Made by a program: the position numbers and the translations under genes
DNA from: a virus
IMG/VR virus record: IMGVR_UViG_3300045988_112234
Span: 51,374-115,373 of that record
Strand: one strand, 5' to 3'
DNA: 64,000 nucleotides
Notes under the pieces: generated by a model
The model's database searches: none
Told to the model about the DNA's origin: nothing
Seen by the model: only the letters and a program-made list of their open reading frames with translations
In this document: positions 297 to 64,000 of the stretch, one piece after another
Layout: each line of letters opens with the position of its first letter
How positions within the stretch are numbered: the stretch's first letter is position 1

Positions 297-2066
297 TTAA
301 AAGAGATTTATAGTGCCCACACGTCTAGGCACTTGTTCAGTATTAAATTGAGCTGTTTTAGTTTTATGTTTCTTATTCTGTTCTTTTATAGTACTGAATA
401 TCAATTTACAGAATGTCTTATAATAAATATTATTATTACATTCCATTCCTAAGTATTCAGCAGCCTGATTTAAGCCATTAATTCCAATAGTTAAATACTG
501 TTTATCAAGATTAATAAAACCAGCATCATAAGCAGCATATAAATGATGATCTTTGCACCAATGCATTAAGTCGTTATAAGCATACTGATATAAATAAACT
601 CTTTCAAGAATATTTTCTATATATTTCTTAATTCCTTCTTGGAAGTCTTTATGTGTAATCCAATCTACTGGGAAACAACATTTATTGGTATTAGCATCAA
701 TATGGTCTTTATAATCAGACCAAGTATGCTGCCAATCTTGAATAATTCTATTTAAATCAAGAGTGATAACATTCTTACTACCAGTCATTATACCTATTTG
801 ACCATTAGTAGTATTAAATGTATTTTCTTGTACGGCATTCTGTAAACGACAACATGAACTTAAACTATCTACACTACGAGACAAATAAGTAAAGAAAGAA
901 TTTCCTTGAGCATATTCACTGCATATAAAATGGAAAGTATCTAAATCTTTAAAATTACCTTCCTTATCTGTTAAGCAAGCATAACTACATACAGGAAATG
1001 TTAAGATACATTTTAATCTTTCTTGATTTAACCAATGTAAATAACGTCTTTGTAACCAATTAGTAGAATTCCATTCTGGCTTTGTTCCATCTGGAAATAC
1101 AAATTCTCCAAACATACCTTCAAAGAAATATTTATCGAAGAATGAAAAATTTGTAAATGGAGACTGCATTCCTCTAGCTCCCGCTATTTGATTAATGGAA
1201 TAAGTTACCTGTTGGAAATATTGATCAATTTGACTACCAATAGTTTTTTGTTTTATACAATAGTCTGTAGTTATTTTTACACTTGGTTTGAGATAATAAT
1301 TATTTCCCCATTCTTTTCTACAGAAATAATCCATATACATCAGAAACTCAGGAGTAGCTACTGCTCCTTTAATTTCAGAGGCTAATGCAAAGTTTAAATT
1401 TACATAAATACCACAGAATGAATCAAGGTTCTTTGGAACAGCTGATTTACCTCCTAATTTCTCTAATCCAAACAACAAGAAAGGATACATAGAAGCTGCC
1501 ATACAATATGGTTCCCCTACTTGAGAAGATGAGTCATGAGGATACAAAATAGTTTTAAAGTCATTCCTCATAACTTTTATATTAAAGTTAGGGTCTCTCT
1601 TCTTTACAAAACTTTCCCACCATTCTGTATTAGTAAGTTTATTATCGACTTTATGTATTTCAGCGTTTAATACTCCAATACCTTTAGTTCCAACATTACT
1701 ATTATCATCAATAGTAGCATTAGCAGTATTATCAGATTTTACAAAATTATGAATAAATTTAATATCCCTAATAGCATGATTTCTAATATCTTCACGTTCT
1801 TTACGATATAGAATATATTTTTTAGCTACGTTGTAATATCCTAAATCCATTAAGAGTTCTTCAATTTGGTCTTGAATATCCTCAATAGATTGATCTTTAG
1901 TCTCTACTACAGAATTAGTTATTTCAGTAACTGCTCTGTAAATATCTTCGTCCATTGTCTTACTAGAATTTTGGGTAATTCCAAAAGCCTTTAGTACAGC
2001 ATCTCTAATTTTGTTTCTGTTAAACTCTTCTTTAATTCCGTCTCTCTTTATTACCATAAATAACAT
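297..2066 (-). CDS. nrdD: class III anaerobic ribonucleoside-triphosphate reductase (NrdD-like), N-terminal ATP-cone; C-terminal Zn-ribbon/glycyl-radical region not present in the ORF
   Basis: ATP-cone MVIKRDGIKEEFNRNKIRDAVLKA; core motif CRLQ...GIMTGSKNVITLDLNRI aligns with T4 NrdD GCRSF...GVVTLNLPRI; ORF ends about 110-190 aa short of full-length NrdD. Confidence 0.7.
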   Translation of the reverse strand: MLFMVIKRDGIKEEFNRNKIRDAVLKAFGITQNSSKTMDEDIYRAVTEITNSVVETKDQSIEDIQDQIEELLMDLGYYNVAKKYILYRKEREDIRNHAIRDIKFIHNFVKSDNTANATIDDNSNVGTKGIGVLNAEIHKVDNKLTNTEWWESFVKKRDPNFNIKVMRNDFKTILYPHDSSSQVGEPYCMAASMYPFLLFGLEKLGGKSAVPKNLDSFCGIYVNLNFALASEIKGAVATPEFLMYMDYFCRKEWGNNYYLKPSVKITTDYCIKQKTIGSQIDQYFQQVTYSINQIAGARGMQSPFTNFSFFDKYFFEGMFGEFVFPDGTKPEWNSTNWLQRRYLHWLNQERLKCILTFPVCSYACLTDKEGNFKDLDTFHFICSEYAQGNSFFTYLSRSVDSLSSCCRLQNAVQENTFNTTNGQIGIMTGSKNVITLDLNRIIQDWQHTWSDYKDHIDANTNKCCFPVDWITHKDFQEGIKKYIENILERVYLYQYAYNDLMHWCKDHHLYAAYDAGFINLDKQYLTIGINGLNQAAEYLGMECNNNIYYKTFCKLIFSTIKEQNKKHKTKTAQFNTEQVPRRVGTINLF

Positions 2067-4878: not shown

Positions 4879-6126
4879 TCAAATATACGGCAAAACTCTA
4901 CCGTGAGCATACAGGAATTGATGATCTCCAATAATAAAATTATCAATAGGATAGTTACTAATATAACTCTTAACATTATATTTAGTTAAATATGCAGCTA
5001 AGAGTTTTTGATTTAACCATTCAAAATCCCCACCATGATTAGATTCTCCTATAGAGAGATAATTAAAATCTTCACTTTTTACTTTTACTGTAAGAGTAGC
5101 AAAGAACTCCATCATACACTCTATAAATGCTTCACTAATTTCTTTATTATCAAGAATCTCAGGAAGCTCATGACCCCCTCTAGTAGTTTCTTTATTGAAC
5201 CCATCAATAGAATCTCCAAGATTAACTACATATACAGAATGATATTCTTGTCCCACAAAAGATTCCACAATTCTAGATAATCTAGATTTAATTTCTGGAA
5301 CATCATAAGAAGGTAACTGTACAAAACTACTATATTTAGCATTATAAGCTCCGATATGTAAATCAGATAACCATATAATTAAATCAGGATATTTCGCTTC
5401 TTTATTATTAATATTTACTGGAAGCTCTTTATAATCCTTTACTGTATTTTTAATAGTGTCTTCTATAAGTTCCTTATTTAAAGACTTAGAGGTTTCCTTA
5501 GTTAACTTAGTAACTAAAGCTCTTAAATCCTTTACCTCATCTTTCTCTATTCTTTTTAAGAAATCATTCTCTTTTTCCCTAAGATGCATTTCTTTTAATT
5601 CATCCTCAGTATATTCTTCATACATATGAGGAGCAAATGGAGAGGATGCTTTAGTAATATTAAAAGCTCGTAAAATTCTTTTAAAGTCAATAAGAGAATA
5701 ATCTGGGAAATATCTGCTGACAATCTGCTGGGTTAAACCAGAACCGTAATAAGTATACATTCTATATACACTATTCATTTCGTTTCTAGTAAAGACTCCT
5801 GTGATTGCGGGCTTATTTCTTCTGAAAATCTCAAACTTATATCCAGTAATTTTACCAGTCTCCTCGTCTCTTATTTCCCAAGTATTAGAAGCATCATCTG
5901 TATCTTTCTTTACTTCTTTTTTCTTAGTATCCTTTAGTCTATCATATAATTCCAATATCTTCTTGTCATCTTCATCTTTATTTTCTTTCTTTCTAAGATT
6001 TCTCATTGTAATATATACAGTATTTATATTTTTTCCTGATATAGTACACTGAGCTTTTAAAGAACGATTATTATTAATTGCATCATTAAAGAACTTAATA
6101 TAAGAAGATTTTGTTGCTTGTTTCAT
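4879..6126 (-). CDS. calcineurin-like metallophosphoesterase, N-terminal segment (K/E-rich N-domain plus motifs I-III)
   Basis: SDLHIG (GDxHG-type), LGDSIDG (GDxxDRG-type), GESNHGG (GNHD/E-type). Confidence 0.65.
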   Translation of the reverse strand: MKQATKSSYIKFFNDAINNNRSLKAQCTISGKNINTVYITMRNLRKKENKDEDDKKILELYDRLKDTKKKEVKKDTDDASNTWEIRDEETGKITGYKFEIFRRNKPAITGVFTRNEMNSVYRMYTYYGSGLTQQIVSRYFPDYSLIDFKRILRAFNITKASSPFAPHMYEEYTEDELKEMHLREKENDFLKRIEKDEVKDLRALVTKLTKETSKSLNKELIEDTIKNTVKDYKELPVNINNKEAKYPDLIIWLSDLHIGAYNAKYSSFVQLPSYDVPEIKSRLSRIVESFVGQEYHSVYVVNLGDSIDGFNKETTRGGHELPEILDNKEISEAFIECMMEFFATLTVKVKSEDFNYLSIGESNHGGDFEWLNQKLLAAYLTKYNVKSYISNYPIDNFIIGDHQFLYAHGRVLPYI

Positions 6127-6198: not shown

Positions 6199-6235
6199 TT
6201 AAAAAAAGGCAGATACTCTCGCGAGCACCTGCCTT
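6199..6235 (-). terminator. rho-independent terminator (aaggcag...ctgcctt stem followed by T-run on minus strand)
   Basis: 7-bp GC-containing stem with 14-nt loop and TTTTTTT on the transcribed strand, directly after the TAA of 6234-7229. Confidence 0.6.
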
Positions 6236-7229
6236 AAATTATATTAAATATGTTTATATCTGTAGAATTATAAGGAATTTCATAATGATTATTTACAAAT
6301 GCTTTATATCTTAAGTATTTTCTAGTTAGATATATTGAGCAATTATCATATAAATAATGTAAGAACTCAATACTTTCTGATTTTTTAAGTTTTAAATTGT
6401 AATAATCATGTACAGTATGGCACAACTAAATTAAGCTATTATTTTGATTACTATATTCCGCTATTTTAGTTACTAACTGTAAAGTTCCAAGTACTGAACA
6501 TCTAGGAACTATTCCATATTTATATTTATTATAACTAATACAACCATCACCATCGAAATATCCCCTAATAAAATGTCTAATTAAATCTTTGGATTTAAAG
6601 ATATTTTCATCAGGAAATTTAAGAGTTAAGGATTTATTAGGAGTACATACATATTTATTTAAAGTCTGCCACAAATGTTTATTAGAGGCTGCCCAAATAC
6701 AACTATTAGTATTTTGTCTTATATTAACTGTTCCAGACATAAAAGTATTAAATTTATGTAAATGCTCAATATCAGAATTTTTTAAAGTTATATTTAAAGT
6801 GTACGTCTAAATTTTTTTAGTAACAGTCTTAATATTACCATCAGCATAAATGAACCCTAACCAATACGCTTTTTCTTCAGTATCAATAGAATCAAATATA
6901 GTTTCTGATATCCTAGATTCAATCTGCTTATTTTTAATATTGTAACCTAAATTTTTTAACTTTTCAGATAATGTAGTTCTACTAGTATGATAAACATCTG
7001 CTAAATATCTAAGACTTTTTCCTTCCTTCCAAGGTTTTATTATATCTTTATCAAAATCTTTTATTAATGATTTCTTAGGATTATGCTAAGTTATATTCCA
7101 AGTTCTTAGATTTTCTAAAATAGAATTTTTAGAGACTTTATATTTTTCACTAAGTTCAGTTATTGAAATTCCATCAATATAATCCTATATTAGATTTTGT
7201 TTAATATTATTTAAATCTTTCCTAAACAT
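6234..7229 (-). CDS. LAGLIDADG homing endonuclease paralog with N-terminal HTH; intact 331-codon reading frame only if four in-frame TAG codons (7185, 7086, 6807, 6426) are read through
   Basis: ATG at 7227-7229, TAA at 6234-6236, no TAA/TGA in frame. Translation MFRKDLNNIKQNLI*DYIDG...DTEEKAYWLGFIYADGN...LIRHFIRGYFDGDGC... is colinear with the standard-code paralog 17132-18088. The ORF track breaks it at each TAG. Confidence 0.7.
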
Positions 7230-7233
7230 AAAT

Positions 7234-7253
7234 AGGGAGGATTACTCCTCCCT
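7234..7253 (-). terminator. hairpin agggagg-agtaat-cctccct between 7260-7940 and the recoded endonuclease gene; also carries a GGAGG just upstream of its ATG
   Basis: perfect 7-bp inverted repeat. Confidence 0.4.
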
Positions 7254-7259
7254 AAAATA

Positions 7260-7940
7260 TTAAAATTCCAAACCAAAAACCATCCATCTTCCATTACGAG
7301 TACTCTTAGATGGAGTATAAGTTACAGTAGCTACTACTGGGTCAGAGCCAATAGACTCCTTACCCTGAACGATATCGATCTGACCCTTAAAGCCCTTCTT
7401 AATAAGTTCCTTAGCCATTTCCTTAGCTGCGGTCTTAGTAGGACGAATAACCTTTGTATCTTGCTCAACACGACCAGTATCGTTACCATCCTTATCAAGA
7501 ATTGGCTCGCCAGCCTTCTCATTCTTTACACGCTCAGACTTCAAAGTCTTCAGTACTTCCTTTGTATTGTGGTCTACCAAATCAAACTTCTTCTGAGTAT
7601 CACGCTTACCCTCAGTCTTAATATCAACAACCTTCCAAGGACGCTCACGTGTACTTGCAACAGCACTAGAAAGAGTTACAATGAAACCACTACCAGGAGC
7701 ATTCTTAGTCTTTTTCTTCAAATACTCCAGCTTAAATTCCTTCTCATCATTAGAAGTTACTTTAGCACTCTTCTCATGGAACTTCTTCCATGCCTGTGTT
7801 GCATCACCATTAATATGAAAATTCTCTTTCTCTACCTGTGCTACTGCTGCTTCCTTTGTTTCTGCACTTACTTCAAAACTCTTAAAATTAAAAATTTCAC
7901 TCATTTTCAAAAATATATTAACATTAATTCTTATTATCAA
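7260..7940 (-). CDS. hypothetical protein (likely true start MSEIF... near 7904); GC-richer than surroundings
   Basis: long ORF, conserved-looking K/E-rich sequence. Confidence 0.6.
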   Translation of the reverse strand: MIIRINVNIFLKMSEIFNFKSFEVSAETKEAAVAQVEKENFHINGDATQAWKKFHEKSAKVTSNDEKEFKLEYLKKKTKNAPGSGFIVTLSSAVASTRERPWKVVDIKTEGKRDTQKKFDLVDHNTKEVLKTLKSERVKNEKAGEPILDKDGNDTGRVEQDTKVIRPTKTAAKEMAKELIKKGFKGQIDIVQGKESIGSDPVVATVTYTPSKSTRNGRWMVFGLEF

Positions 7941-11926: not shown

Positions 11927-12697
11927 CTACATATCTGCCAGCATAGCATCGAAGTCTTCATCTTGAGCCTCCTTGCCTTCAGTAGAGTCAATAGATTTAG
12001 CCTCTTCTGAATCAGCTGCTGGCACAGGAGCAGTAGGCTTACGCTTCTCCATATCCTCTTTCTGCTTAATCTCATAATTAGAGAATGACAATTTATCTTC
12101 CTCTAAGCTAGCAAAATTATCACGGATATAGAACTGTCCATCACTATTAATAGCTCCAATATCAGGAATCTTAGCAAATACATTACCAGTTTCCTTTGAA
12201 ATTCCCTTTTCATCCTTTTTCTTTTCCTTATGACCGCTAAGCTTTAAATAAAAGTTTTTATTCATACAATACTTAGTCAATACTGCCTGGAAAAGCTGCA
12301 TGAATTGGTCAGTACTCTTACAAGTAGGAGCTTTAGTTACAAACAATTCTTTAGCTTTATCACCACCTACTACTGTTATAATATGCAGCATAAAACCTTT
12401 AAGCTGTTCAAATGCTGAAGGAAGTACATATGGGAATTCTACACCCTTAGAATCCTTTCTCTTACCCTCATATCTTTTAGCAGAACTTTCATTAGGATAA
12501 AACAATGATTCTTGATAAGTTCCTTGTTCTCCTTCAAAATGAAGTACCAGAGATTTCCAAGTTGTACTAGGGTCTTGTTTACCTTGACCTTCCTTAGTTT
12601 CTACACTTTTTAACTGAACGAGATAAATTCCATAAGGACGAAGACCTTTCTTACTTGTAGGATTAATATCACCAAGACCACCAAAATTTAAATTCAT
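11927..12697 (-). CDS. hypothetical protein with acidic C-terminal tail (possible ssDNA-binding/annealing protein)
   Basis: C-terminus ...DEDFDAMLADM; position between primase and ATPase. Confidence 0.5.
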   Translation of the reverse strand: MNLNFGGLGDINPTSKKGLRPYGIYLVQLKSVETKEGQGKQDPSTTWKSLVLHFEGEQGTYQESLFYPNESSAKRYEGKRKDSKGVEFPYVLPSAFEQLKGFMLHIITVVGGDKAKELFVTKAPTCKSTDQFMQLFQAVLTKYCMNKNFYLKLSGHKEKKKDEKGISKETGNVFAKIPDIGAINSDGQFYIRDNFASLEEDKLSFSNYEIKQKEDMEKRKPTAPVPAADSEEAKSIDSTEGKEAQDEDFDAMLADM

Positions 12698-12709
12698 ATT
12701 GCTATATTA

Positions 12710-13315
12710 TTAAAGATTATCGAAATTAAAATCATTATCTGAGATTTCTGTATCATCTGTGTTGCCGTCAATAAGACTAGCCATTTCGTCATCTAATTCA
12801 TCTTCTGATGCAATATCCTCTGCTTCAGGAACTACATCTTCTTTAATCTCAGGCTCTCGATTACCTGTTAATATAAACAATCCATCAATTTTAGGATGTG
12901 GAGTGAAAGTAAACTCATTACCATGCTCAGCAAGGTTCTGGTTATTCTTTCCTCTATATGAAACTGCATTCTTCTGAGTTAATTTATTACCTGACTGCGT
13001 ACCAAATGTTTCAGCAGCTCCGATAACTAAGCACTCCTTCTTATTAAGTTTCTGCTGTTTAATGTCTACCTTATCTCCTGGTTCTACACCAAGAGCCTCA
13101 ACAGCAGCCTTATTAAGAATATACTTATTCTCCTCAAGAATTAATAGTGGATTAGGATTTGTATCATCTACTTCTGAATCTTTCTTTTTAGAAGAAGACT
13201 TACGAGTAGACGGCTTCTTTACAGAATCATCCTTCAATTCACGTGTATCAGTAAAAATTTCTCCAGTTTCTTCATTAAGCCACTCGGACTTAATTGTCAT
13301 TTTAATTAGCTTCAT
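12710..13315 (-). CDS. hypothetical acidic protein (201 aa)
   Basis: ORF, D/E-rich termini. Confidence 0.55.
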   Translation of the reverse strand: MKLIKMTIKSEWLNEETGEIFTDTRELKDDSVKKPSTRKSSSKKKDSEVDDTNPNPLLILEENKYILNKAAVEALGVEPGDKVDIKQQKLNKKECLVIGAAETFGTQSGNKLTQKNAVSYRGKNNQNLAEHGNEFTFTPHPKIDGLFILTGNREPEIKEDVVPEAEDIASEDELDDEMASLIDGNTDDTEISDNDFNFDNL

Positions 13316-16953: not shown

Positions 16954-18192
16954 AATACAGTTTAGTCCTATTCTGGATTTCGGCCTTGTTATCGTATAGC
17001 TTTTTATCTATACTTCTTACTATTACTAATAAGCCCCGCATAAATTTTTACCCACTTATTTCAGTTGGGGCATCGAACACTCGTGGAGAAATTATATTCT
17101 AATAAAAATAGCCTATTTAATAACTAGACTATTAATTAGGTTCATTCTCTATGCTGTACGGTGTAGAAGATTCTTTAATTTCTTCTATTACCTCGGTATT
17201 ACCCTCTATAGGGCTTTCACCGATTTTGCTCGATGATAATTCTGCCCATTCCTGAACAGAACGGCTTCCATTTTTAAAAAATTCATATAATTTATATTTT
17301 CTATCTAAATAGATAGTACAATTATTGTATAAATAATTTATTAATTCAATTCCTGGTTCTTTGTGATACTCTAATGTCCATGTAAATTCTGTATAACATT
17401 TATCATGTCTATAATTTGCTTCTATTTTAGAATATTCTAAAATTTTATCAAGAAAATCTTTAGTTCCTAAAAAACTAATAGCAGGAGACACAATAGTATG
17501 ATGAATATGCCTGGTAAAACACCCATCACCATCAAAGTATCCCCTAATAAAATGTCTTATTAAATCCCTAGATTTAAAGATACTTTCATTAGGAAATTTT
17601 AATGTTAAACTCTTTCTAGGAGTACATCCATAATTATTAAGAGTTTCCCACAGATGCTTATTTGCTACGTACCATCTACATCTTTTACAAATTACTTTTC
17701 CACATTTAGCATCTTCAATAGTTACTTTATTAGCATTTTCATGCTTCATAAATTTATTGAATTTATCTAAATGGTTTTTATCACTTGCTTTTAAAGAAAT
17801 TTCTAATAAGTATCTAGATTTTCCTTTTAAGGAGTCTGAACTAATATATCCATCAGCAAATATGAAACCTAACCAGTAAGCTTTTTCTTCAGTATCTATA
17901 CAATCAAAAACTGTATTATCAAATTTTAATCTATTTTGTTTATTTATAATCTCTACTCCTAATTCTCTAAAATGTTTAGCTAATGTTTGGCGAGTAGTAC
18001 CTTCTCTTGCTGCCATTTTAGTAGGAGAGATAGATGAATTTAAAAATTCATCAGCTAAAGTTCTGTAATATTTTAATTTTTCTTGCATAAGTAATTATTT
18101 GTTACTTTACAAGTACAGTTAAAATATTACAGGTACAAAATAAATTTTACATTGAATACAAAATTACTAAATTGTTCAAAATTTTAATTGAA
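16954..18192 (-). mobile_element. about 1.24-kb insertion interrupting the helicase gene inside Walker A; candidate group I intron carrying a LAGLIDADG HEG
   Basis: exon 1 ends ...IVASTGFG and exon 2 starts KTVL..., which would restore AxTGxGKT. Flanks are a 130-nt 5' and a 180-nt GC-richer 3' non-coding segment around the HEG. Confidence 0.5.
17132..18088 (-). CDS. LAGLIDADG homing endonuclease (318 aa, standard code) with N-terminal HTH
   Basis: LIRHFIRGYFDGDGC motif; own ATG and stop; paralog of 6234-7229. Confidence 0.8.
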   Translation of the reverse strand: MQEKLKYYRTLADEFLNSSISPTKMAAREGTTRQTLAKHFRELGVEIINKQNRLKFDNTVFDCIDTEEKAYWLGFIFADGYISSDSLKGKSRYLLEISLKASDKNHLDKFNKFMKHENANKVTIEDAKCGKVICKRCRWYVANKHLWETLNNYGCTPRKSLTLKFPNESIFKSRDLIRHFIRGYFDGDGCFTRHIHHTIVSPAISFLGTKDFLDKILEYSKIEANYRHDKCYTEFTWTLEYHKEPGIELINYLYNNCTIYLDRKYKLYEFFKNGSRSVQEWAELSSSKIGESPIEGNTEVIEEIKESSTPYSIENEPN

Positions 18193-23795: not shown

Positions 23796-24277
23796 AATTT
23801 ATAAATATAAAGAGTTATTGTTAAATCATTAGCAAAAAGTTCTTGGAGCATAGGATAAACTACTCCGTCCCAATCTCCTCCTGCTAATCCACATCCCAAT
23901 TTATAAGGAATACCTACTTCTGTTACTTCTTCGTCCTCACAAAAAGCTTTTAAATTTAACAAAGCTTTTTTAAGAGCATTATAATCAGTATGTCTATTTT
24001 CAAAAGGAGCTACTGATTCAGTAAAAGAATATTCTCCAAATAAATTAGCTACGAGATTAATAGGTTCATTTCCTGTTATACATACTTGACATTTTCCTAG
24101 TAATTTTCTAGAATATTTAGAATTTTTACAATAATTAGCATATTGTGTATATACGCTATTCCATTTATTTTTAATAGCCTTAGCTATACCTGCCTCCATT
24201 ACTCCTAAACAATTAGTTTGGTGAGCTATAAGAGGTAAATTTGATTGGAGTAAATCTTCATTAACAACTTCTATCAT
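23783..24277 (-). CDS. macro domain protein (ADP-ribose binding/processing)
   Basis: IAHQTNCLGVMEAGIAKAI and GIPYKLGCGLAGG macro-domain motifs. Confidence 0.7.
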   Translation of the reverse strand: MIEVVNEDLLQSNLPLIAHQTNCLGVMEAGIAKAIKNKWNSVYTQYANYCKNSKYSRKLLGKCQVCITGNEPINLVANLFGEYSFTESVAPFENRHTDYNALKKALLNLKAFCEDEEVTEVGIPYKLGCGLAGGDWDGVVYPMLQELFANDLTITLYIYKLCNN

Positions 24278-25827
24278 ACTAATGTTGAATTTACACGTTC
24301 ACGAATTTCAGAAAGAGAATATTCTCTTACTAATTCTCCATCTACAAAGACTGTTTTAAGACAACCTTGTAGTTCTGCATCCTTAGTCTGCTGGTCATAA
24401 GCAACATACTTACCATCCTCTTTTTCAACTCTTATAAGACCTTTAAGAGAGTTCTTTGTTCCATCATCAGTCTTTGGGTGCTTATAGATTTCTATAAGTT
24501 TACCATTAATGATGCATGCGGTTGCTTTAACTGCGAAACCCAAAGAATCTCTACTCTTAAATTGATAAGTATAAGATCCAATACCTAGAACAAGATTACA
24601 AGCTGCCATATGAGCGTTTTCCAATCTAGCATAGATATCACGCTGACGCTCCAGAGTAATAGAATCTCCATAAAGTAATCCAACCTTGGTACTTGGATAA
24701 CGATAGTCATTTACAGTAGTATTCCATCCAAAGATTTTTCCTAGCATATAATATGCTCCATAGTACTGACCTTCAGATACTTCTACATAATGATTTTCAT
24801 CATCGTCCATAAATGGATTAAAATCACAGTAATACTTACCTTCTTTCATAGCAGTATGATAGTGAGGATTTGTACGAAGACCACAAATAATGTCTACTGG
24901 ATCACCACTATCAGGACGAATTACTACTCGACCAACACGTTTCATAATATCTGCCTTAAGCTTAGGCAAGAATTTTTCAACTACCTGCCAAAAATCCCAA
25001 GTATCAGATACTATTGAGATAATACCTGTTGGATATAGGTCATTAATAAGACGGCGGTATGTTTCAATCTCATCATCCTCACCTCCTGCGCACATTACTG
25101 AATGTTCCGAAGCCGGAACAGTTGCAGCTACAAGTTCTTCAGTAACATTTGCATTGTAATAATGTTCTACTGCTTCAATAGCAGGAATTGTTTCACTACC
25201 ACAGAATGAAGTCATATGAGCCATACCAGAGATAATAGCAGCATCAAGTCCTGCCATACCTCTCATTGAGAAATCGTGACAAGAGAAACCTAGATTTACT
25301 TCCTCTGGGAATCCAGTCTTTCTAGCATGTTCCATAAGTCTCTTTTTATAGAGACGAGCACTTGTTGCAGAAGTACAAGGAAGCCATAGAGTACAACTAA
25401 TTAAAGTTTCCAAGTAATTAGTCAACCAAAAGAAGTCCGGGAGAGTGTTCTTAATAGTCATCATAGGTACTCTTATAGGACAGATAGAACCTTCAGGAAG
25501 AGCTTTAATTTCAATAGGAAGATATCCTAAATCATAGAGTTCTTCAATATGCTTTGTCCCAACCTGGTTAAGATCTACAAAGTTACCTACACGATAGGCA
25601 AATTGCTTAATAGCTTCTTCCTTAGGAAGAGCAAACCATTTGTTAAATTCCTCTATCAAATACTTCTTTACAAAGTACTGAATACCAAATACTACAGAAC
25701 CTTCTGTAGCTTCTGGGAAGTAACGATTACTTCTAGGAGTCCAGTTACTATAAACCATTTGTGTACCCTCTGGGTACATACGATGATGACCAAGCTTGTA
25801 GCCATCAGTTGCATTAATAATTTCCAT
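24274..25827 (-). CDS. nadV: nicotinamide phosphoribosyltransferase family (NadV/NAMPT-like; candidate Namat)
   Basis: N-terminal NATDGYKLGHH... and overall length/pattern of NAMPT. Confidence 0.75.
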   Translation of the reverse strand: MEIINATDGYKLGHHRMYPEGTQMVYSNWTPRSNRYFPEATEGSVVFGIQYFVKKYLIEEFNKWFALPKEEAIKQFAYRVGNFVDLNQVGTKHIEELYDLGYLPIEIKALPEGSICPIRVPMMTIKNTLPDFFWLTNYLETLISCTLWLPCTSATSARLYKKRLMEHARKTGFPEEVNLGFSCHDFSMRGMAGLDAAIISGMAHMTSFCGSETIPAIEAVEHYYNANVTEELVAATVPASEHSVMCAGGEDDEIETYRRLINDLYPTGIISIVSDTWDFWQVVEKFLPKLKADIMKRVGRVVIRPDSGDPVDIICGLRTNPHYHTAMKEGKYYCDFNPFMDDDENHYVEVSEGQYYGAYYMLGKIFGWNTTVNDYRYPSTKVGLLYGDSITLERQRDIYARLENAHMAACNLVLGIGSYTYQFKSRDSLGFAVKATACIINGKLIEIYKHPKTDDGTKNSLKGLIRVEKEDGKYVAYDQQTKDAELQGCLKTVFVDGELVREYSLSEIRERVNSTLV

Positions 25828-26317
25828 TAATTGATTCTTTTAATGTTAAACCTGTACTATATTTATAAAACACTTCAGTTATATAACTCTTAGTTTTTTT
25901 GTGGATTTTCATATGAGGCTGTTGTTTAAGCCACCATGTATATTCTCTTCTAGGGTCAGCTCCATATGTTTTAGCTGCTGCTAAATAATCACATATAAGT
26001 TCTAGAACATATTTTTTAGGCATTTTAGCAGGAATTCCTCCATTATCTAAGGAATGTATCCAATATTCATAATGGTGAGGATTCCTTCCTCTATGATGAA
26101 GGAATGTTTGACTATATCCTAATATTCTACACTCATTCGCTAAAGAGCTCATTTTATCATCCCAATACTTAATAGCTCTTGAAAATTCTGTAAAACTAAA
26201 TTTAGACAAATCATGAGTAATACCTTGCCAATATAATCCTATTTGAAAGCAATATTTAGCAACATAATACTTATGAGTTAAGATTCGCTTTATTAATTTC
26301 AACCAAACTAAGTTCAT
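25814..26317 (-). CDS. hypothetical protein (167 aa)
   Basis: ORF overlapping the nadV start. Confidence 0.55.
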   Translation of the reverse strand: MNLVWLKLIKRILTHKYYVAKYCFQIGLYWQGITHDLSKFSFTEFSRAIKYWDDKMSSLANECRILGYSQTFLHHRGRNPHHYEYWIHSLDNGGIPAKMPKKYVLELICDYLAAAKTYGADPRREYTWWLKQQPHMKIHKKTKSYITEVFYKYSTGLTLKESINGNY

Positions 26318-50510: not shown

Positions 50511-50681
50511 CTTAGCGCTTTAGGCTTTTTATAAGAAGCCTTAACTTAATAAAGTTCTCGCATAATTTATAACCAAAAACAGATAAATAATTCCATTTTC
50601 ACAAACAGAATTTTTACCGAAAACTTAGAAAATTCTTAAAACTTATGAGTATAAAACATCGAATATGAATAATAATAGAGT

Positions 50682-50753
50682 AAATATGGACAGACTCGAA
50701 CTGTCAACCTCTGGTTACCTAGCCAGTGCCCTACCGCTTTAAACTACATATTT
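50682..50753 (-). tRNA. tRNA-like gene with an 8-nt anticodon loop CTAGGTAA on a 4-bp stem (identity unresolved)
   Basis: good acceptor AAATATG/CATATTT and T-arm GACAG-TTCGAGT-CTGTC; the anticodon stem fits only as CTGG/CCAG with an 8-nt loop. Confidence 0.4.
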
Positions 50754-52865: not shown

Positions 52866-52935
52866 TACGGTAGAAAGGATTCGAACCAATGACCTATTAT
52901 AAAAAGAGATGCTTTAACCACTGAGCTACTACCGT
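52866..52935 (-). tRNA. degenerate tRNA-like gene (perfect acceptor ACGGTAG/CTACCGT, AT-rich anticodon arm with loop TTTTATA, weak T-stem); possible pseudogene
   Basis: hand fold has a mismatched anticodon stem and T-stem ATTGG/CCTTT. Confidence 0.3.
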
Positions 52936-53341: not shown

Positions 53342-53365
53342 ATTACTTAATCTTTTAATGTTAGT

Positions 53366-53445
53366 ACGGAGTAAAGGATTCGAACCAATATAACCTCTCT
53401 ATGAATTGTGGAAGTGAGGTGCTCTAGCCATTAAGCTAACTCCGC
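53366..53445 (-). tRNA. 80-nt tRNA-like gene with an unresolvable anticodon region (possible intron/long insert or pseudogene)
   Basis: acceptor GCGGAGT/ACTCCGT, D-arm GCTT/GAGC, same unusual T-arm ATTGG-TTCGAAT-CCTTT as 52866-52935. Confidence 0.3.
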
Positions 53446-59160: not shown

Positions 59161-59322
59161 TAAGATAGTTCCTAATCTTACAGTATCTCAATTAATAGAA
59201 CTAGTAAATATTATTAATGGTTTTAAAAGATATACCACATTTATTACAATAAACACTAGTGATAATAAAACTACTTCTACTGAAAATCCTTTTAGTGTTA
59301 GTAGTTATTTATAAGATAATAT

Positions 59323-59394
59323 TCTCCTATGGTGTAATGGTTAGCACAGAAGACTCTAAATCTTTTAGTCAGGGTTCGAATCCTTGTGGGAGAA
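59323..59394 (+). tRNA. amber suppressor tRNA, anticodon CUA (tRNA-Sup; amino acid identity not determinable, Gln is the usual assignment in TAG-recoding phages)
   Basis: acceptor TCTCCTA/TGGGAGA, D-arm GTGT-AATGGTTA-GCAC, anticodon stem GAAGA/TCTTT, loop CTCTAAA (U33-CUA-A37), variable TAGT, T-arm CAGGG-TTCGAAT-CCTTG; 72 nt. Confidence 0.8.
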
Positions 59395-59469
59395 GAATAG
59401 CGTAAGTAGAAACCTCCACGTGGTGCTATTCGGATAACGCTAATTCTACTTTAAAAACATAATCTTCAA

Positions 59470-61377: not shown

Positions 61378-64000
61378 TATTATATAAATCATATCATTGC
61401 CTTTAGCTGCTTTCTAAAATCCAGTATATGCTTCAGGAGCATAGGTATTGTAACCTACACCAGTTGATATATAACTCCAGCATGTTTTTTAGGACTTGCC
61501 TTATGCATATTATATACTATGTCTTCTATAGGATTCGCATTATTCTCATAGCTACTTCTACTCCACGTTTTAAAGGAACTTTTACAGCATATCCTATTAC
61601 AGAAGCATTACTAAATAATTACTAGCTTTAGTTGGATTCTTAGATATATCTAAAGCACCTTTAGTATAATCATATACTGCCTAAGCAGCTGGAGCTAAAG
61701 CATAACCTATTCCTGAATTAACTAATGCTTTAATAGGACTAGTATTATTATTCCAACTATCTACTTCTCTAGCATAAGCTCCTTTTATAGGATGGGTTCT
61801 ATTCTTATTACTATAATTATATAATTTAGAATTAGTATGCCCACCCTATTTTATAGTCCTACAAATACATCTTGTACCCCATTTAAAGTTCTAACGGGAA
61901 TAACTCTCTACTAATATTTAGCACCAAGATATGAAGCTAGGATGATTTAATCTATTATAATATTCCATATCTATAGCCATCTATTTATTCCGAGTATTAT
62001 TATTTACTCCTTTATTTTGTTTACTCTCATCTACTATTGGCATATTTATACTTTATTTTTCCATATACTAGTTATACTATCTATACCTAGTAATCCCATA
62101 CAACAATATAAAACTGTATCTATCATATCAGGAGCTTGTATCTAACTAATAGAACAGTATATTAGAATAATTAAACTTACTATCCATCCTAATATTCCAC
62201 ACACTCTTTTACTACTTATTCCAGTATGTGCTGTTATTAATTTAATTAAAAACTATTTCATATTTTTTCACATAGTTTTAATAAAGAATCTAGAGTAATC
62301 TCAGAATATGATATTTCTACTGGGTTTTCCATAGTAATCCTTTTTCAGTTTTAATCATCTGTTTCATATTTTTTTAAATATTTATCCCATAACTATTTAT
62401 CCCTCTCACTTACAAAATCTAAAAATCTTTGTAATTCTTCAATTTTTTCTGTCAAAATATATGTATCCATTATTATTTTTATTAGGTTTTAAATTAAATC
62501 CACTACCTTTAGTTTTAGTAATATACAATGTTGGGAGACTCCATCATAAACTACTTTAGTTCCACCATTATTATAGTCATAATCGGAACCTAGATAGTCC
62601 ATAGTATAATCTAAAGGCTAACCACTATTAGGTTTTATATATTGATCTTTACTTATTATTATCTCTACTCCAAGATTTATCTCCTAAATCTGGATAAGTC
62701 GGATGAGTTTTAGTTTTATAAGTCCCTGAAGCTCCTTCATCAGGAAAATGCCCAGTAGGAATATACCTATTCCAATTATGTGCTAGAATACTATTTAACT
62801 ATAGCCAAGCTACTATAGGTTGGTCATTATAGTATTTTCTATAATCGTAATGGTCTTTATACCCCATGCTTGAGATAACTATTTATTCCAAATATTATAA
62901 TTATTATTATTTATTTCTGGCATGTATATCAATAATATTAGGTATAATCTAAATAGGTAACTATATCTTAGGACTTAATTTAATAACATCATTTGCTATT
63001 ATAGTATTCCATTTAGCTACCTATTCTAAATAAGATCTATTTAATTCCTAAGATGTGAAGTATGAACCTTGACTTGGTCGAACTCCTTTTTTAGCTAATT
63101 TTTTAGTAGTTTCTTTTTTCTACTAATTTAATACTACGTCGACTTGTCTCTTCCGCATAGCATTAACTCTTGGAGATTAGGGTAATAATCAGGTAGATCT
63201 AAGAAGTTTAGAACCTCCTTTAGTTAAAGTTGTTGCAAATTTAGCTCCTAATATATCTGCCCCAGTTTCTAAAGTATTCCATACAGCGCTTCCAAAATTA
63301 CTTGGGGATTCTTTAAAAATCTTGTACCATCCTCTACCAGCTATAGCTAAAGAAGGCAACTAACCTACTCCAGCAATAATTCCTCCTATAGGAGCACCTA
63401 CAGCGGTAGTACTTATACCTGCACCTAGTCCTAAACTACCTAAAGATATAGCTGCCGCAGTAGGTTCTCATTTATCTGCTTGACGATCTAATTCTTCAAA
63501 AATTTCAGGCATTTCTAAATTTATTTATATATTTTGCAACACTAATACCATTGGCATCAGACCCTCCTGCAATACCATGTTTATAATAATTTTTAGTCCA
63601 TGTTGGACTTAACCATGATGCTGCTATAGCTTCTCCAGTAACTGCTATACCATTATTTCTTAAAAATCTTGCATTAGCATCATATAATTGTGATGCGGCT
63701 AATACTTGTGCATCAGGACTATTTTTAAACTGTTCTCTAGATAAATTAGAATATTTATTTCTAGTACCATCTATAAGCTAGAACCATCCAGTAGCAGAAC
63801 TATTTTTAGATTGAGCTTTAGAATTAAATCCTGATTCTAGAGAAGCTATCTTCATTAAAGTAATTTTCTTGTTTCCAGTGATACCATATTTATCTAAAGT
63901 CTATTCTAGTACCTATTTATTTTTACTAGGCTTGTTTCCAGTGATTAAAGTCTATTCTAGTACCTATTTATTTTTACTAGGCTTGTTTCCAGTGATACCA
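61378..64000 (-). other. remainder of the minus-strand late-gene block; the standard-code ORF track is fragmentary here, consistent with TAG-recoded coding sequence (gene boundaries unresolved)
   Basis: high density of plus-strand cta triplets; the only track ORFs are short antisense ones. Confidence 0.4.
63868..64000. repeat. tandem direct repeat of about 51 bp (about 2.5 copies; unit aaagtctattctagtacctatttatttttactaggcttgtttccagtgat) running into the window edge
   Basis: 63896-63945 and 63947-63996 are identical; cttgtttccagtgatacca recurs at 63868 and 63982. Confidence 0.6.

What the first reader, a model, noticed from the sequence alone, without database searches (positions are those of the whole stretch)
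6234..7229. Full-length LAGLIDADG homing endonuclease gene in the early region that is intact only under TAG readthrough (4 in-frame amber codons)
In standard code the locus looks like a shattered pseudogene (track ORFs 6234-6425 and 6426-6740 plus ORF-less DNA to 7229). Hand translation shows a single frame from ATG 7227-7229 to TAA 6234-6236 with no TAA or TGA. It has four TAG codons, at 7185-7187, 7086-7088, 6807-6809 and 6426-6428. The product is colinear with the standard-code paralog at 17132-18088, sharing the HTH, DTEEKAYWLGFI(F/Y)ADG and LIRHFIRGYFDGDGC motifs. The gene has its own hairpin/GGAGG upstream and a textbook terminator downstream. A mobile-element nuclease gated by suppressor-tRNA availability is an unusual regulatory arrangement. 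It is also independent evidence that TAG is a sense codon in this phage.
Basis: seen in the sequence. Interest (0 to 1): 0.85.

Follow-up and report, generated by a model that had tools for sequence, protein, structure and literature searches.

The report
Amber-codon-gated homing endonuclease gene
A selfish DNA-cutting gene sits among a gut phage's replication genes and can only be translated in full when the stop codon TAG is read as glutamine; the gene is real, intact and under selection, but the same idea was already proposed for a TGA-recoded phage group.

Summary
Window 7229..6234 (minus strand) is one 331-codon frame with four TAG codons, no TAA or TGA, and a TAA stop. It encodes a complete two-domain LAGLIDADG nuclease (Pfam hits; AlphaFold pLDDT 92.9; fold matches I-AniI and I-OnuI).

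It is not a pseudogene. In 23 independent metagenome contigs (9 haplotypes) all four TAGs are kept, there are no indels or other stops, and pN/pS is about 0.1. Codon 251 is CAG in seven haplotypes and TAG in two, which fits TAG = Gln.

About 82 other genes in the same replication module (14,548 codons) have no internal TAG. In a 95-99% identical relative, late genes use TAG for 60% of Gln codons. A CUA suppressor tRNA lies at 59322-59395.

The gene is a free-standing mobile insert of 1,022 nt. Ten related genomes have an empty site. All HEG-carrying alleles carry a distinct 10-substitution block about 20-40 nt upstream, a likely target or immunity site.

The "GGAGG" is probably not a ribosome-binding site, because this phage does not use Shine-Dalgarno motifs. 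The downstream terminator belongs to the host gene.

Suppressor-dependent, probably late, translation is inferred, not shown. Borges et al. already proposed it for a TGA-recoded intron endonuclease. This is a new member of a known kind.

The parts
6234..7229 (-). Free-standing LAGLIDADG homing endonuclease gene. It has 331 codons, an ATG at 7227-7229 and a TAA at 6234-6236. The product has two N-terminal helical (HTH-like) modules (residues ~10-43 and 59-93) and a double LAGLIDADG core (residues ~118-313).
   Evidence: Translation; Pfam; AlphaFold pLDDT 92.9 and Foldseek matches to I-AniI, I-OnuI and I-SmaMI at probability 1.00; pN/pS about 0.1 across 9 haplotypes.
7185..7187 (-). In-frame TAG 1 (codon 15), in the first N-terminal helix.
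   Evidence: kept in all 23 contigs; position in the model.
7086..7088 (-). In-frame TAG 2 (codon 48), in the linker between the two N-terminal helical modules.
6807..6809 (-). In-frame TAG 3 (codon 141), at the start of a beta-strand in LAGLIDADG domain 1.
6426..6428 (-). In-frame TAG 4 (codon 268), in a beta-strand of LAGLIDADG domain 2. It aligns with a genuine Gln codon in the two closest homolog lineages (P0007, P0004).
6477..6479 (-). Codon 251. It is CAG here and in 6 other haplotypes, and TAG in 2 haplotypes (10 contigs). This is a natural CAG/TAG polymorphism.
6237..7258 (-). The mobile insert (1,022 nt: hairpin plus endonuclease ORF up to its stop). In 10 related genomes it is replaced by a ~21-nt spacer (TTTATTCATAATTTTTAAAG).
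7233..7254 (-). A 9-bp GC-rich hairpin (UAGGGAGGA-GUAA-UCCUCCCUA) with a GNRA loop (GCAA in L002), followed by UUUAUGUUU, which contains the start codon. It is terminator-like or a structured leader, and probably not an SD site.
6206..6235 (-). Intrinsic terminator of the upstream host gene, displaced by the insert and now serving the endonuclease gene.
   Evidence: present unchanged in empty alleles.
7260..7904 (-). Host gene directly upstream (214 aa from the ATG; 226 aa if the TTG at 7940 is used). Function unknown. The endonuclease follows the ortholog of this gene in every genome examined, including 57%-identical homologs.
   Evidence: no Pfam or PHROG hit.
7278..7298 (-). Candidate homing-target or immunity block in the 3' end of the host gene. 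It reads CGTAATGGAAGATGGATGGTT here and in 17 of 17 endonuclease-carrying alleles, versus AAGAATGGTCGCTATATGTTC in 8 of 10 empty alleles (10 substitutions).
   Evidence: Fisher p = 2e-5 (the alleles are not phylogenetically independent).
59322..59395 (+). tRNA with anticodon CUA (amber suppressor; U1-A72 first pair), on the opposite strand from the standard-code module. It is presumed to decode the four TAGs.
   Evidence: ARAGORN; Rfam tRNA 63.6 bits. The same tRNA sits at the boundary to TAG-rich genes in 16 contigs of 106-225 kb.
17132..18088 (-). Paralogous LAGLIDADG endonuclease gene with no TAG. It is present in both the window and the relative MT835492.

Best explanation
This is a functional, free-standing LAGLIDADG homing endonuclease gene. 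It has inserted between the stop codon of a replication-module gene and that gene's terminator, in a gut phage with a dual genetic code. The replication module is written in the standard code. The endonuclease gene uses the late-gene dialect, in which TAG encodes glutamine. Full-length enzyme can therefore be made only when the phage's CUA suppressor tRNA reads through all four TAGs. Before that, translation stops at codon 15. Shown here: the ORF is intact, it is under selection, TAG is equivalent to Gln, the gene is mobile, and the tRNA exists. Inferred: the consequence is that nuclease production is confined to the code-switched, probably late, phase of infection, even though the gene sits in a standard-code transcription unit. 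A terminator-like hairpin over the start region probably lowers expression further. The likely cleavage target is the 3' end of the upstream host gene in genomes without the insert, and carrier genomes are protected by a 10-substitution block there.
For: The ORF is intact with TAG-only interruptions. Nine haplotypes from 23 contigs keep all four TAGs with no indels or other stops; 39 of 61 variable sites are at third codon positions; pN/pS is 0.07-0.2, including the segment after the last TAG. pS is similar to the neighbouring host gene (0.070 vs 0.082), while pN/pS is 0.13 vs 0.04. Codon 251 shows a CAG/TAG polymorphism. TAG 4 aligns with Gln codons in the 54-58% identical homologs. Those homologs carry 6 and 7 TAGs of their own, several of them opposite Gln in the window protein. 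The model is a complete double-LAGLIDADG fold with invariant motif residues. The roughly 82 other genes of the module have 0 internal TAG in 14,548 codons, against 4 in 331 here (p = 2.4e-7). In the relative's late module TAG makes up 3.2% of codons and 60% of Gln codons; in this gene it makes up 40% of Gln codons. The suppressor tRNA is in the window and sits at the head of TAG-rich genes in related contigs. No intron was found. For precedent, T4 homing endonucleases are held back until middle or late times (PMC2988022), and Borges et al. made the same inference for a TGA-recoded intron endonuclease.
Against: No expression data exist, so the timing of the suppressor tRNA is unknown. The tRNA lies close to the divergent region between the modules and could be made early. 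The paralog at 17132-18088 has no TAG, so TAG is not a requirement for endonucleases in this module. TAG positions turn over between lineages, and the TAG share of Gln codons (40-47%) is not above the late-gene average (60%). That fits neutral drift in a gene with no need for early expression as well as it fits selected gating. Nuclease activity and the target site are untested.
Confidence: 0.8

Rival explanations
1. Neutral dialect, not regulation. The element circulates among TAG-recoded phages and is only useful once replicating co-infecting genomes are present. CAG-to-TAG changes are therefore simply tolerated. The dependence on the suppressor is a by-product with no selected timing function.
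For: TAG positions differ between the window lineage and the 54-58% identical homologs. A CAG/TAG polymorphism is segregating. The TAG share of Gln codons (40-47%) is at or below the late-gene mean of 60%. The TAG-free paralog persists in the same module. Most distant homologs in IMG/VR have no internal TAG.
Against: Three of the 4 endonuclease genes seen in the standard-code module of this phage and its relative carry internal TAGs. These are two LAGLIDADG genes and one GIY-YIG gene. None of about 82 other genes does (p = 4e-5). All three are presence/absence variable. This concentration in selfish nucleases would be expected if delayed or limited expression is favoured. It is also expected under pure tolerance, so the data do not separate the two readings.
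Confidence: 0.35
2. Attenuation rather than timing. The suppressor tRNA is present throughout infection at partial efficiency, so four TAGs in series only reduce the yield of a toxic nuclease (yield about r^4) without confining it to a phase.
For: The tRNA lies at the module boundary next to an AT-rich divergent region and might be transcribed early. The start region is also covered by a terminator-like hairpin, consistent with general down-tuning.
Against: Late ORFs with 128 TAGs in 3,402 codons need near-complete suppression, so a permanent partial regime seems unlikely. Six standard-module genes end in TAG and would be read through constantly.
Confidence: 0.12
3. Decaying pseudogene. The endonuclease is dead and the TAGs are ordinary nonsense mutations.
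For: Under the standard code the locus is fragmented. Some annotation pipelines call only a 104-aa piece.
Against: All four interruptions are TAG although TAA dominates the off-frames. There are no indels in 23 contigs, pN/pS is about 0.1 along the whole length including after the last TAG, and third-position variation dominates. The predicted fold is complete and confident. Homolog lineages keep open frames with 6-7 TAGs.
Confidence: 0.03

Closest known systems
Group I intron endonuclease with in-frame TGA in an early gene of TGA-recoded 'Agate' phages (Borges et al., bioRxiv 10.1101/2021.08.26.457843; read)
   Same: A homing endonuclease located among early or standard-code genes of a stop-codon-recoded gut phage. 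It carries in-frame reassigned stop codons. The authors infer that this prevents endonuclease production until late in infection.
   Different: Here the codon is TAG (Gln, code 15) rather than TGA (Trp, code 4). The gene is free-standing in an intergenic position rather than intron-encoded. The phage lineage is different. This report adds population evidence: 9 haplotypes, a CAG/TAG polymorphism, empty sites and a candidate target block.
Delayed expression of T4 homing endonucleases (I-TevI, I-TevII, I-TevIII, segB, Aeh1 mobE) by late promoters and RBS-sequestering hairpins (Edgell, Gibb and Belfort 2010, PMC2988022)
   Same: Endonuclease genes embedded in early or middle transcription units are translated only late. 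Free-standing, promoter-less cassettes sit between conserved genes. A stable hairpin covers the translation start region.
   Different: In T4 the switch is alternative transcript 5' ends that free the RBS. Here the proposed switch is a change of genetic code (a suppressor tRNA). The host system appears not to use SD sites, so the hairpin cannot work by SD sequestration in the T4 sense.
Monomeric double-motif LAGLIDADG endonucleases: I-AniI (1p8k), I-OnuI, I-SmaMI, and the bI3 maturase (2ab5)
   Same: Two tandem LAGLIDADG domains in one chain, with conserved acidic residues at the ends of both motif helices. Foldseek probability 1.00.
   Different: Sequence identity is only 12-21%. An extra ~110-residue N-terminal region with two HTH-like helical modules is present. 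There is no sequence-level PDB hit. The gene is free-standing in a phage rather than organellar and intron-encoded.
Variable homing endonuclease content of zeta crAss-like phages (Lera vs ct1yV3; PMC12386605)
   Same: Large gut phages with a forward replication and tRNA block, a reverse virion block and suppressor tRNAs. Near-identical genomes differ mainly in which endonuclease genes they carry.
   Different: That paper does not report in-frame TAGs in the endonuclease genes (no occurrence of 'in-frame' in its text). I did not establish whether the present phage belongs to that family. Its major capsid protein matches only two unclassified records in the phage collection.

Membership tests
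LAGLIDADG homing endonuclease (monomeric, double-motif) | Two LAGLIDADG motifs, each ending in a conserved acidic residue | tested here: met
   Motif 1 is KAYWLGFIYADG (G125, D130 and G131 invariant in 46 homologs). Motif 2 is FIRGYFDGDG (R222, G223, Y224, D226, G227, D228 and G229 invariant). Pfam LAGLIDADG_1 and LAGLIDADG_3 score above their cut-offs.
LAGLIDADG homing endonuclease (monomeric, double-motif) | Two alpha-beta-beta-alpha-beta-beta-alpha domains forming one DNA-binding saddle | tested here: met
   AlphaFold2 model with pLDDT 92.9 and pTM 0.75. Helix and strand order at 118-313 matches two such domains. The top 50 PDB fold matches are all LAGLIDADG-type proteins (homing endonucleases, engineered meganucleases, the bI3 maturase and an intein endonuclease), at probability 1.00.
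LAGLIDADG homing endonuclease (monomeric, double-motif) | Site-specific double-strand cleavage of a long (about 18-22 bp) target | not testable with these tools
   There is only an indirect lead: a 21-nt block with 10 substitutions distinguishes carrier alleles from most empty alleles.
Mobile (homing) genetic element | Presence/absence polymorphism at one defined site in otherwise near-identical genomes | tested here: met
   The 1,022-nt insert is present in 23 contigs at the same site. Ten genomes have a clean empty site with a 21-nt spacer. Flanks are 98-99% identical.
Mobile (homing) genetic element | Free-standing: not inside an intron or intein | tested here: met
   The insert starts 2 nt after the host gene's stop codon. 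Rfam at gathering threshold finds only tRNAs in the window.
Code-15 (TAG = Gln) recoded phage with dual coding | Phage-encoded tRNA with anticodon CUA | tested here: met
   Window 59322-59395: ARAGORN anticodon cta and Rfam tRNA at 63.6 bits. The same tRNA is conserved in 16 large viral contigs.
Code-15 (TAG = Gln) recoded phage with dual coding | Structural or lysis genes open only with TAG as sense, while another module is TAG-free | tested here: met
   In the relative MT835492, 23 late ORFs hold 593 TAGs in 18,390 codons, including the major head protein. Window 60-64 kb holds TAG-containing membrane-protein and transglycosylase-like ORFs. Window 1-58 kb has 0 internal TAG in 14,548 codons.
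Code-15 (TAG = Gln) recoded phage with dual coding | TAG corresponds to glutamine | tested here: met
   CAG/TAG polymorphism at codon 251. TAG 4 lies opposite Gln codons in two homolog lineages, and the reverse also occurs. CAG is depleted where TAG is abundant in late genes. Aminoacylation of the tRNA itself was not testable; U1-A72 is only suggestive.
Suppressor-gated (late-only) translation of a homing endonuclease, as proposed by Borges et al. | An endonuclease gene with in-frame reassigned stops located among standard-code (early) genes | tested here: met
   Neighbours are an exonuclease VIII-like protein, an exonuclease, a primase, a DnaB-like helicase and a helicase, all TAG-free. The same contrast is seen in L087 and L092.
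Suppressor-gated (late-only) translation of a homing endonuclease, as proposed by Borges et al. | Suppressor activity appears only late, so the protein is absent early | not testable with these tools
   No transcript, tRNA or protein time course is available. Only the genomic position of the tRNA at the head of TAG-rich genes is known.

The most novel reading that the evidence does not exclude
In dual-code gut phages, selfish nucleases as a class (LAGLIDADG and GIY-YIG alike) adopt the reassigned stop codon as a built-in timer and containment device. The nuclease is silent in the standard-code phase, and in any cell or phage that lacks the matching suppressor. It is produced only after the code switch. 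Homing is thereby restricted to co-infections among phages that share the same code, a 'genetic-code firewall' for mobile elements. The hint here is that 3 of 4 endonuclease genes, and none of about 82 other genes, in the standard-code module carry internal TAGs.
Probability: 0.3. Interest if true: 0.65.

Novelty: new member of a known kind. Interest (0 to 1): 0.45.

Why it matters
This is a clean, well-documented natural case for the hypothesis that recoded phages use their code switch to time gene expression. A single gene written in the late code sits inside an otherwise standard-code module. Population data show that the TAGs are maintained as sense codons and interconvert with CAG. The case extends the one published example (TGA, intron-encoded) to TAG and to free-standing endonucleases of two families. 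It also supplies concrete reagents for a test: the Gln-substituted ORF, the empty-site allele and a candidate 21-nt target. On the practical side, standard-code annotation shreds such genes, and public pipelines call this one as a 104-aa fragment.

Tried and rejected
I obtained close variants through exact-protein look-ups instead.
- A sequence search of the PDB found nothing meaningful. The fold search was needed.
- I considered SD sequestration by the hairpin, as in T4 I-TevI. I rejected it because 60 of 64 genes have no SD motif and the GGAGG lies 17 nt from the ATG.
- I looked for an intron context and found none.
- I asked whether the TAG sites are conserved positions across the family. 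They are not: they fall in variable columns, and distant homologs show many residues there. Only the close homologs are informative.
- I tried to place the window's 41-64 kb region in the relative MT835492 and found no similarity. That record also has no suppressor tRNA and is probably an incomplete scaffold.
- Aligning the suppressor tRNA with the phage's tRNA-Gln(UUG) showed no close relationship, so the tRNA's amino-acid identity was not settled from its sequence.
- Lineage assignment failed. The capsid protein matches only two unclassified records.
- SNP density in the flanks gave only a weak signal, until alleles were sorted by presence or absence of the insert.

Full report
**1. The observation.** Translating window 7229..6234 on the minus strand gives one uninterrupted frame of 331 sense codons ending in TAA (6234-6236). 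It has four in-frame TAGs, at 7185-7187, 7086-7088, 6807-6809 and 6426-6428. There is no TAA, no TGA and no frameshift. Under the standard code the locus appears as the two fragments 6234..6425 and 6426..6740. With this base composition, 331 unconstrained codons would lack TAA and TGA with probability about 1e-12. The other two frames of the same stretch contain 25 and 35 TAA codons. The product hits Pfam LAGLIDADG_1 and LAGLIDADG_3. It is 46% identical over 274 residues to the TAG-free paralog at 17132-18088.

**2. The gene is alive, not a wreck.** The 90%-identity protein cluster around this gene has 167 members. Some pipelines called it as a 331-aa protein with Q at the four sites, and others as a 104-aa fragment. 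In every DNA copy I fetched, those Q's are TAG codons.

- I collected 23 full-length copies from independent metagenome assemblies, giving nine haplotypes at 96.9-100% nucleotide identity. All keep the four TAGs, none has an indel, and none has a TAA or TGA.
- Of 61 variable sites, 39 are at third codon positions. Pairwise pN/pS is 0.07-0.2. The 63 codons after the last TAG show 8 third-position changes against 3 others.
- In the same contigs, pS of this gene (0.070) is close to that of the adjacent host gene (0.082). pN/pS is 0.13 against 0.04. The gene has co-diverged with its phage under real, somewhat weaker, constraint.
- An AlphaFold2 model built on 46 homologs is confident (pLDDT 92.9). 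It shows two N-terminal helical modules followed by two LAGLIDADG domains.
- The best PDB fold matches are all LAGLIDADG-type proteins (I-AniI, I-OnuI, I-SmaMI, the bI3 maturase, PI-PfuI), at probability 1.00.
- The motif residues are invariant in the family: G125, D130 and G131; R222, G223, Y224, D226, G227, D228 and G229.
- TAG 3 and TAG 4 lie inside beta-strands of domains 1 and 2. TAG 1 lies in the first helix. Stopping at any of them would remove part of the catalytic core.

**3. TAG means glutamine here.**

- Codon 251 (window 6477-6479) is CAG in seven haplotypes and TAG in two haplotypes carried by ten contigs.
- The closest homolog lineages are 54-58% identical and sit at the same genomic position in other large phages. 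They have 6 and 7 in-frame TAGs, mostly at other positions.
- The window's TAG 4 lies opposite a true Gln codon in both lineages, and several of their TAGs lie opposite Gln in the window protein.
- This matches the published code-15 assignment for gut phages (PMC9523058 and PMC10607447, seen).

**4. The phage has two dialects, and this gene speaks the late one.**

- In window 1-58 kb, 82 minus-strand gene proxies (14,548 codons) have no internal TAG. Six of them use TAG as their stop codon. The difference from 4 TAGs in 331 codons gives p = 2.4e-7.
- The neighbours are replication and recombination genes: an exonuclease VIII-like protein, an exonuclease, a primase, a DnaB-like helicase, a helicase and NrdD.
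- The GenBank record MT835492 is 95-99% identical to window 331-40642. On its opposite strand it carries 23 large ORFs that are open only with TAG as sense, for example 3,402 codons with 128 TAGs. They include the major head protein.
- In that module TAG is 3.2% of all codons and 60% of Gln codons. In the endonuclease gene TAG is 40% of Gln codons, and in its two homolog lineages 46-47%.
- The window itself carries a tRNA with anticodon CUA at 59322-59395 on the plus strand. It also has TAG-containing genes at 60-64 kb: a 71-aa membrane protein and a transglycosylase-like ORF.
- The same tRNA occurs in 16 viral contigs of 106-225 kb. There it marks the boundary between TAG-free genes and TAG-rich genes that start 1.5-5 kb downstream on its own strand.

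**5. It is a mobile insert.**

- MT835492 lacks window 6237-7258 and has a 21-nt spacer instead. The flanks are 98-99% identical.
- Nine more viral contigs (94-181 kb) have the same empty site.
- In all 23 carrier contigs, and in the 57%-identical homologs, the gene lies directly after the ortholog of the gene at 7260..7904.
- The insert sits between that gene's stop codon and its intrinsic terminator (6235-6206). The 'textbook terminator' is therefore the host gene's own.
- Rfam finds no intron.
- The insert has 23% G+C, against 38% for the host gene and 30% for the window.
- Sorting alleles by presence of the insert reveals a 21-nt block (7278-7298, about 20-40 nt upstream of the insertion point) with ten substitutions. 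All 17 carrier alleles and 2 empty alleles have one version. Eight of the 10 empty alleles have the other (p = 2e-5; the alleles are not phylogenetically independent).
- That pattern is what one expects of a homing target with immunity substitutions in the carrier. This is an inference.

**6. The start region.** A 9-bp GC-rich hairpin with a GNRA loop lies between the host gene's stop codon and the ATG. It is followed by UUUAUGUUU, and the simple scan calls it terminator-like. However, 60 of 64 genes in this phage have no Shine-Dalgarno motif, which is fewer than at random positions. The motif is also 17 nt from the ATG and buried in the stem. I read the hairpin as an insulator, either a partial terminator or a structured leader, that keeps expression low. 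The homolog lineages lack it and instead abut or overlap the host gene's stop codon.

**7. How it most likely works.**

- Shown: the only way to make the full enzyme is to read four TAGs as Gln, and the phage supplies a CUA tRNA and uses TAG massively in its late genes.
- Inferred: without suppression, translation ends at codon 15. Late ORFs with more than 100 TAGs imply that suppression becomes nearly complete once it is switched on. Enzyme production is therefore confined to the code-switched phase, although the gene is embedded in a standard-code module.
- This parallels T4, where endonucleases in early or middle transcripts are translated only late (PMC2988022).
- Whether the TAGs are selected for this effect or merely tolerated cannot be decided here. 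In favour of selection or strong tolerance: the relative has two further endonuclease genes in the TAG-free module that the window lacks, and both have in-frame TAGs. One is a GIY-YIG gene with four internal TAGs and one is a LAGLIDADG gene with one. None of about 82 other genes has any (p = 4e-5).
- Against a strict requirement: the paralog at 17132-18088 has none, TAG positions turn over, and the TAG share is not above the late-gene mean.

**8. Comparison and novelty.**

- Borges et al. (bioRxiv 10.1101/2021.08.26.457843) reported that a group I intron endonuclease inserted in an early gene of TGA-recoded Agate phages preferentially uses TGA. They inferred that in-frame stops should prevent its production until late. 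The present case uses the same logic with TAG/Gln, a free-standing LAGLIDADG gene and a different lineage.
- The variable endonuclease content of near-identical genomes matches what is described for zeta crAss-like phages (PMC12386605).
- I therefore rate it a new member of a known kind. It is well supported and useful as a test case, but not a new principle.

Noticed in passing
window 59395-59451 (+), immediately 3' of the suppressor tRNA: A 57-nt element (GAATAGC GT AAGTAG AAA CC-TCCACGT-GG T GCTATTC GG ATAACGCTAATT CTACTT) has the nested P1/P2/P3-L3/P1.1 topology of a minimal HDV-like ribozyme, with its 5' end at the tRNA's discriminator base. It is present after the same tRNA in L195 and L207 and absent in 13 other contigs, so it is an optional insert. 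It fits the 'theta ribozymes' reported next to suppressor tRNAs (PMC10879173). Rfam gave no hit.
   Followed up: partly
window 62046-62261 (-): A 71-aa protein with two hydrophobic helices and two in-frame TAGs (codons 3 and 40). It is 90-98% identical at the DNA level in the 14 of the 16 suppressor-tRNA contigs that match it, in an otherwise divergent region. It has a weak PHROG 'membrane protein' hit and may be a holin-like lysis protein.
   Followed up: partly
window 63505-63999 (-), open at its upstream end: An ORF with 5 in-frame TAGs that matches transglycosylase and lytic tail protein PHROGs (3e-10). Together with other TAG-bearing minus-strand ORFs at 60-64 kb, it shows that the window's right end is written in the recoded dialect.
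   Followed up: partly
L084 (MT835492) 12551-13201; corresponds to the gap between window 30621 and 30628: A GIY-YIG endonuclease gene (Pfam 1.4e-9) with four internal in-frame TAGs. It lies between tRNA-Met and tRNA-Tyr genes in the TAG-free module of the relative. The whole 1.3-kb segment is absent from the window.
   Followed up: partly
L084 (MT835492) 4925-5935; corresponds to the gap between window 36652 and 36671: A third LAGLIDADG endonuclease gene (47% identical to the one studied) with one in-frame TAG just after the second motif. It is absent from the window. The same TAG is present in IMG/VR loci L006, L007 and L059.
   Followed up: partly
L087 5953-5997 vs 6973-7017; L090 ~20-66 vs 1061-1105: In the 54-58% identical homolog lineages, the endonuclease ends with ..AFGIE(N)A. 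This repeats the C-terminus of the upstream host gene (..IAFGIEAA / ..VAFGIESGL), with 15 identical nucleotides in L090. It suggests an ancestral insertion inside the 3' end of the host gene with duplication of its last codons. The echo is weak in the window copy.
   Followed up: partly
window, all gene starts in 1-58 kb: Genes have almost no Shine-Dalgarno motifs (60 of 64 have none). This is typical of phages of Bacteroidota-type hosts. The host was not identified.
   Followed up: no
window 50680-50753 (-), 52866-52935 (-), 53365-53445 (-): ARAGORN reports a tRNA with a four-base anticodon (aggt) at 50680-50753. Rfam also scores it as a tRNA (43.4 bits) and finds two further tRNAs that ARAGORN missed.
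   Followed up: no
window 24369-26222: A 1.85-kb segment absent from MT835492 carries most of a nicotinamide/nicotinate phosphoribosyltransferase gene (24274..25827; Pfam NAPRTase 5e-34) at higher G+C (35%). It is an auxiliary metabolic gene that varies between close relatives.
   Followed up: no
window 11927, 19852, 39482, 40281, 44967, 49862 (stop codons of minus-strand genes): Six standard-code genes end in TAG. If TAG is read through after the code switch, each meets a TAA or TGA within 1-11 codons, so late read-through would add only short tails.
   Followed up: no
L092 14921-17749 vs window 297-2066: In one carrier genome the anaerobic ribonucleotide reductase gene is 942 codons long, with intein and LAGLIDADG_3 hits. 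The window's NrdD ORF is 589 codons. This is another variable mobile element in this module.
   Followed up: no
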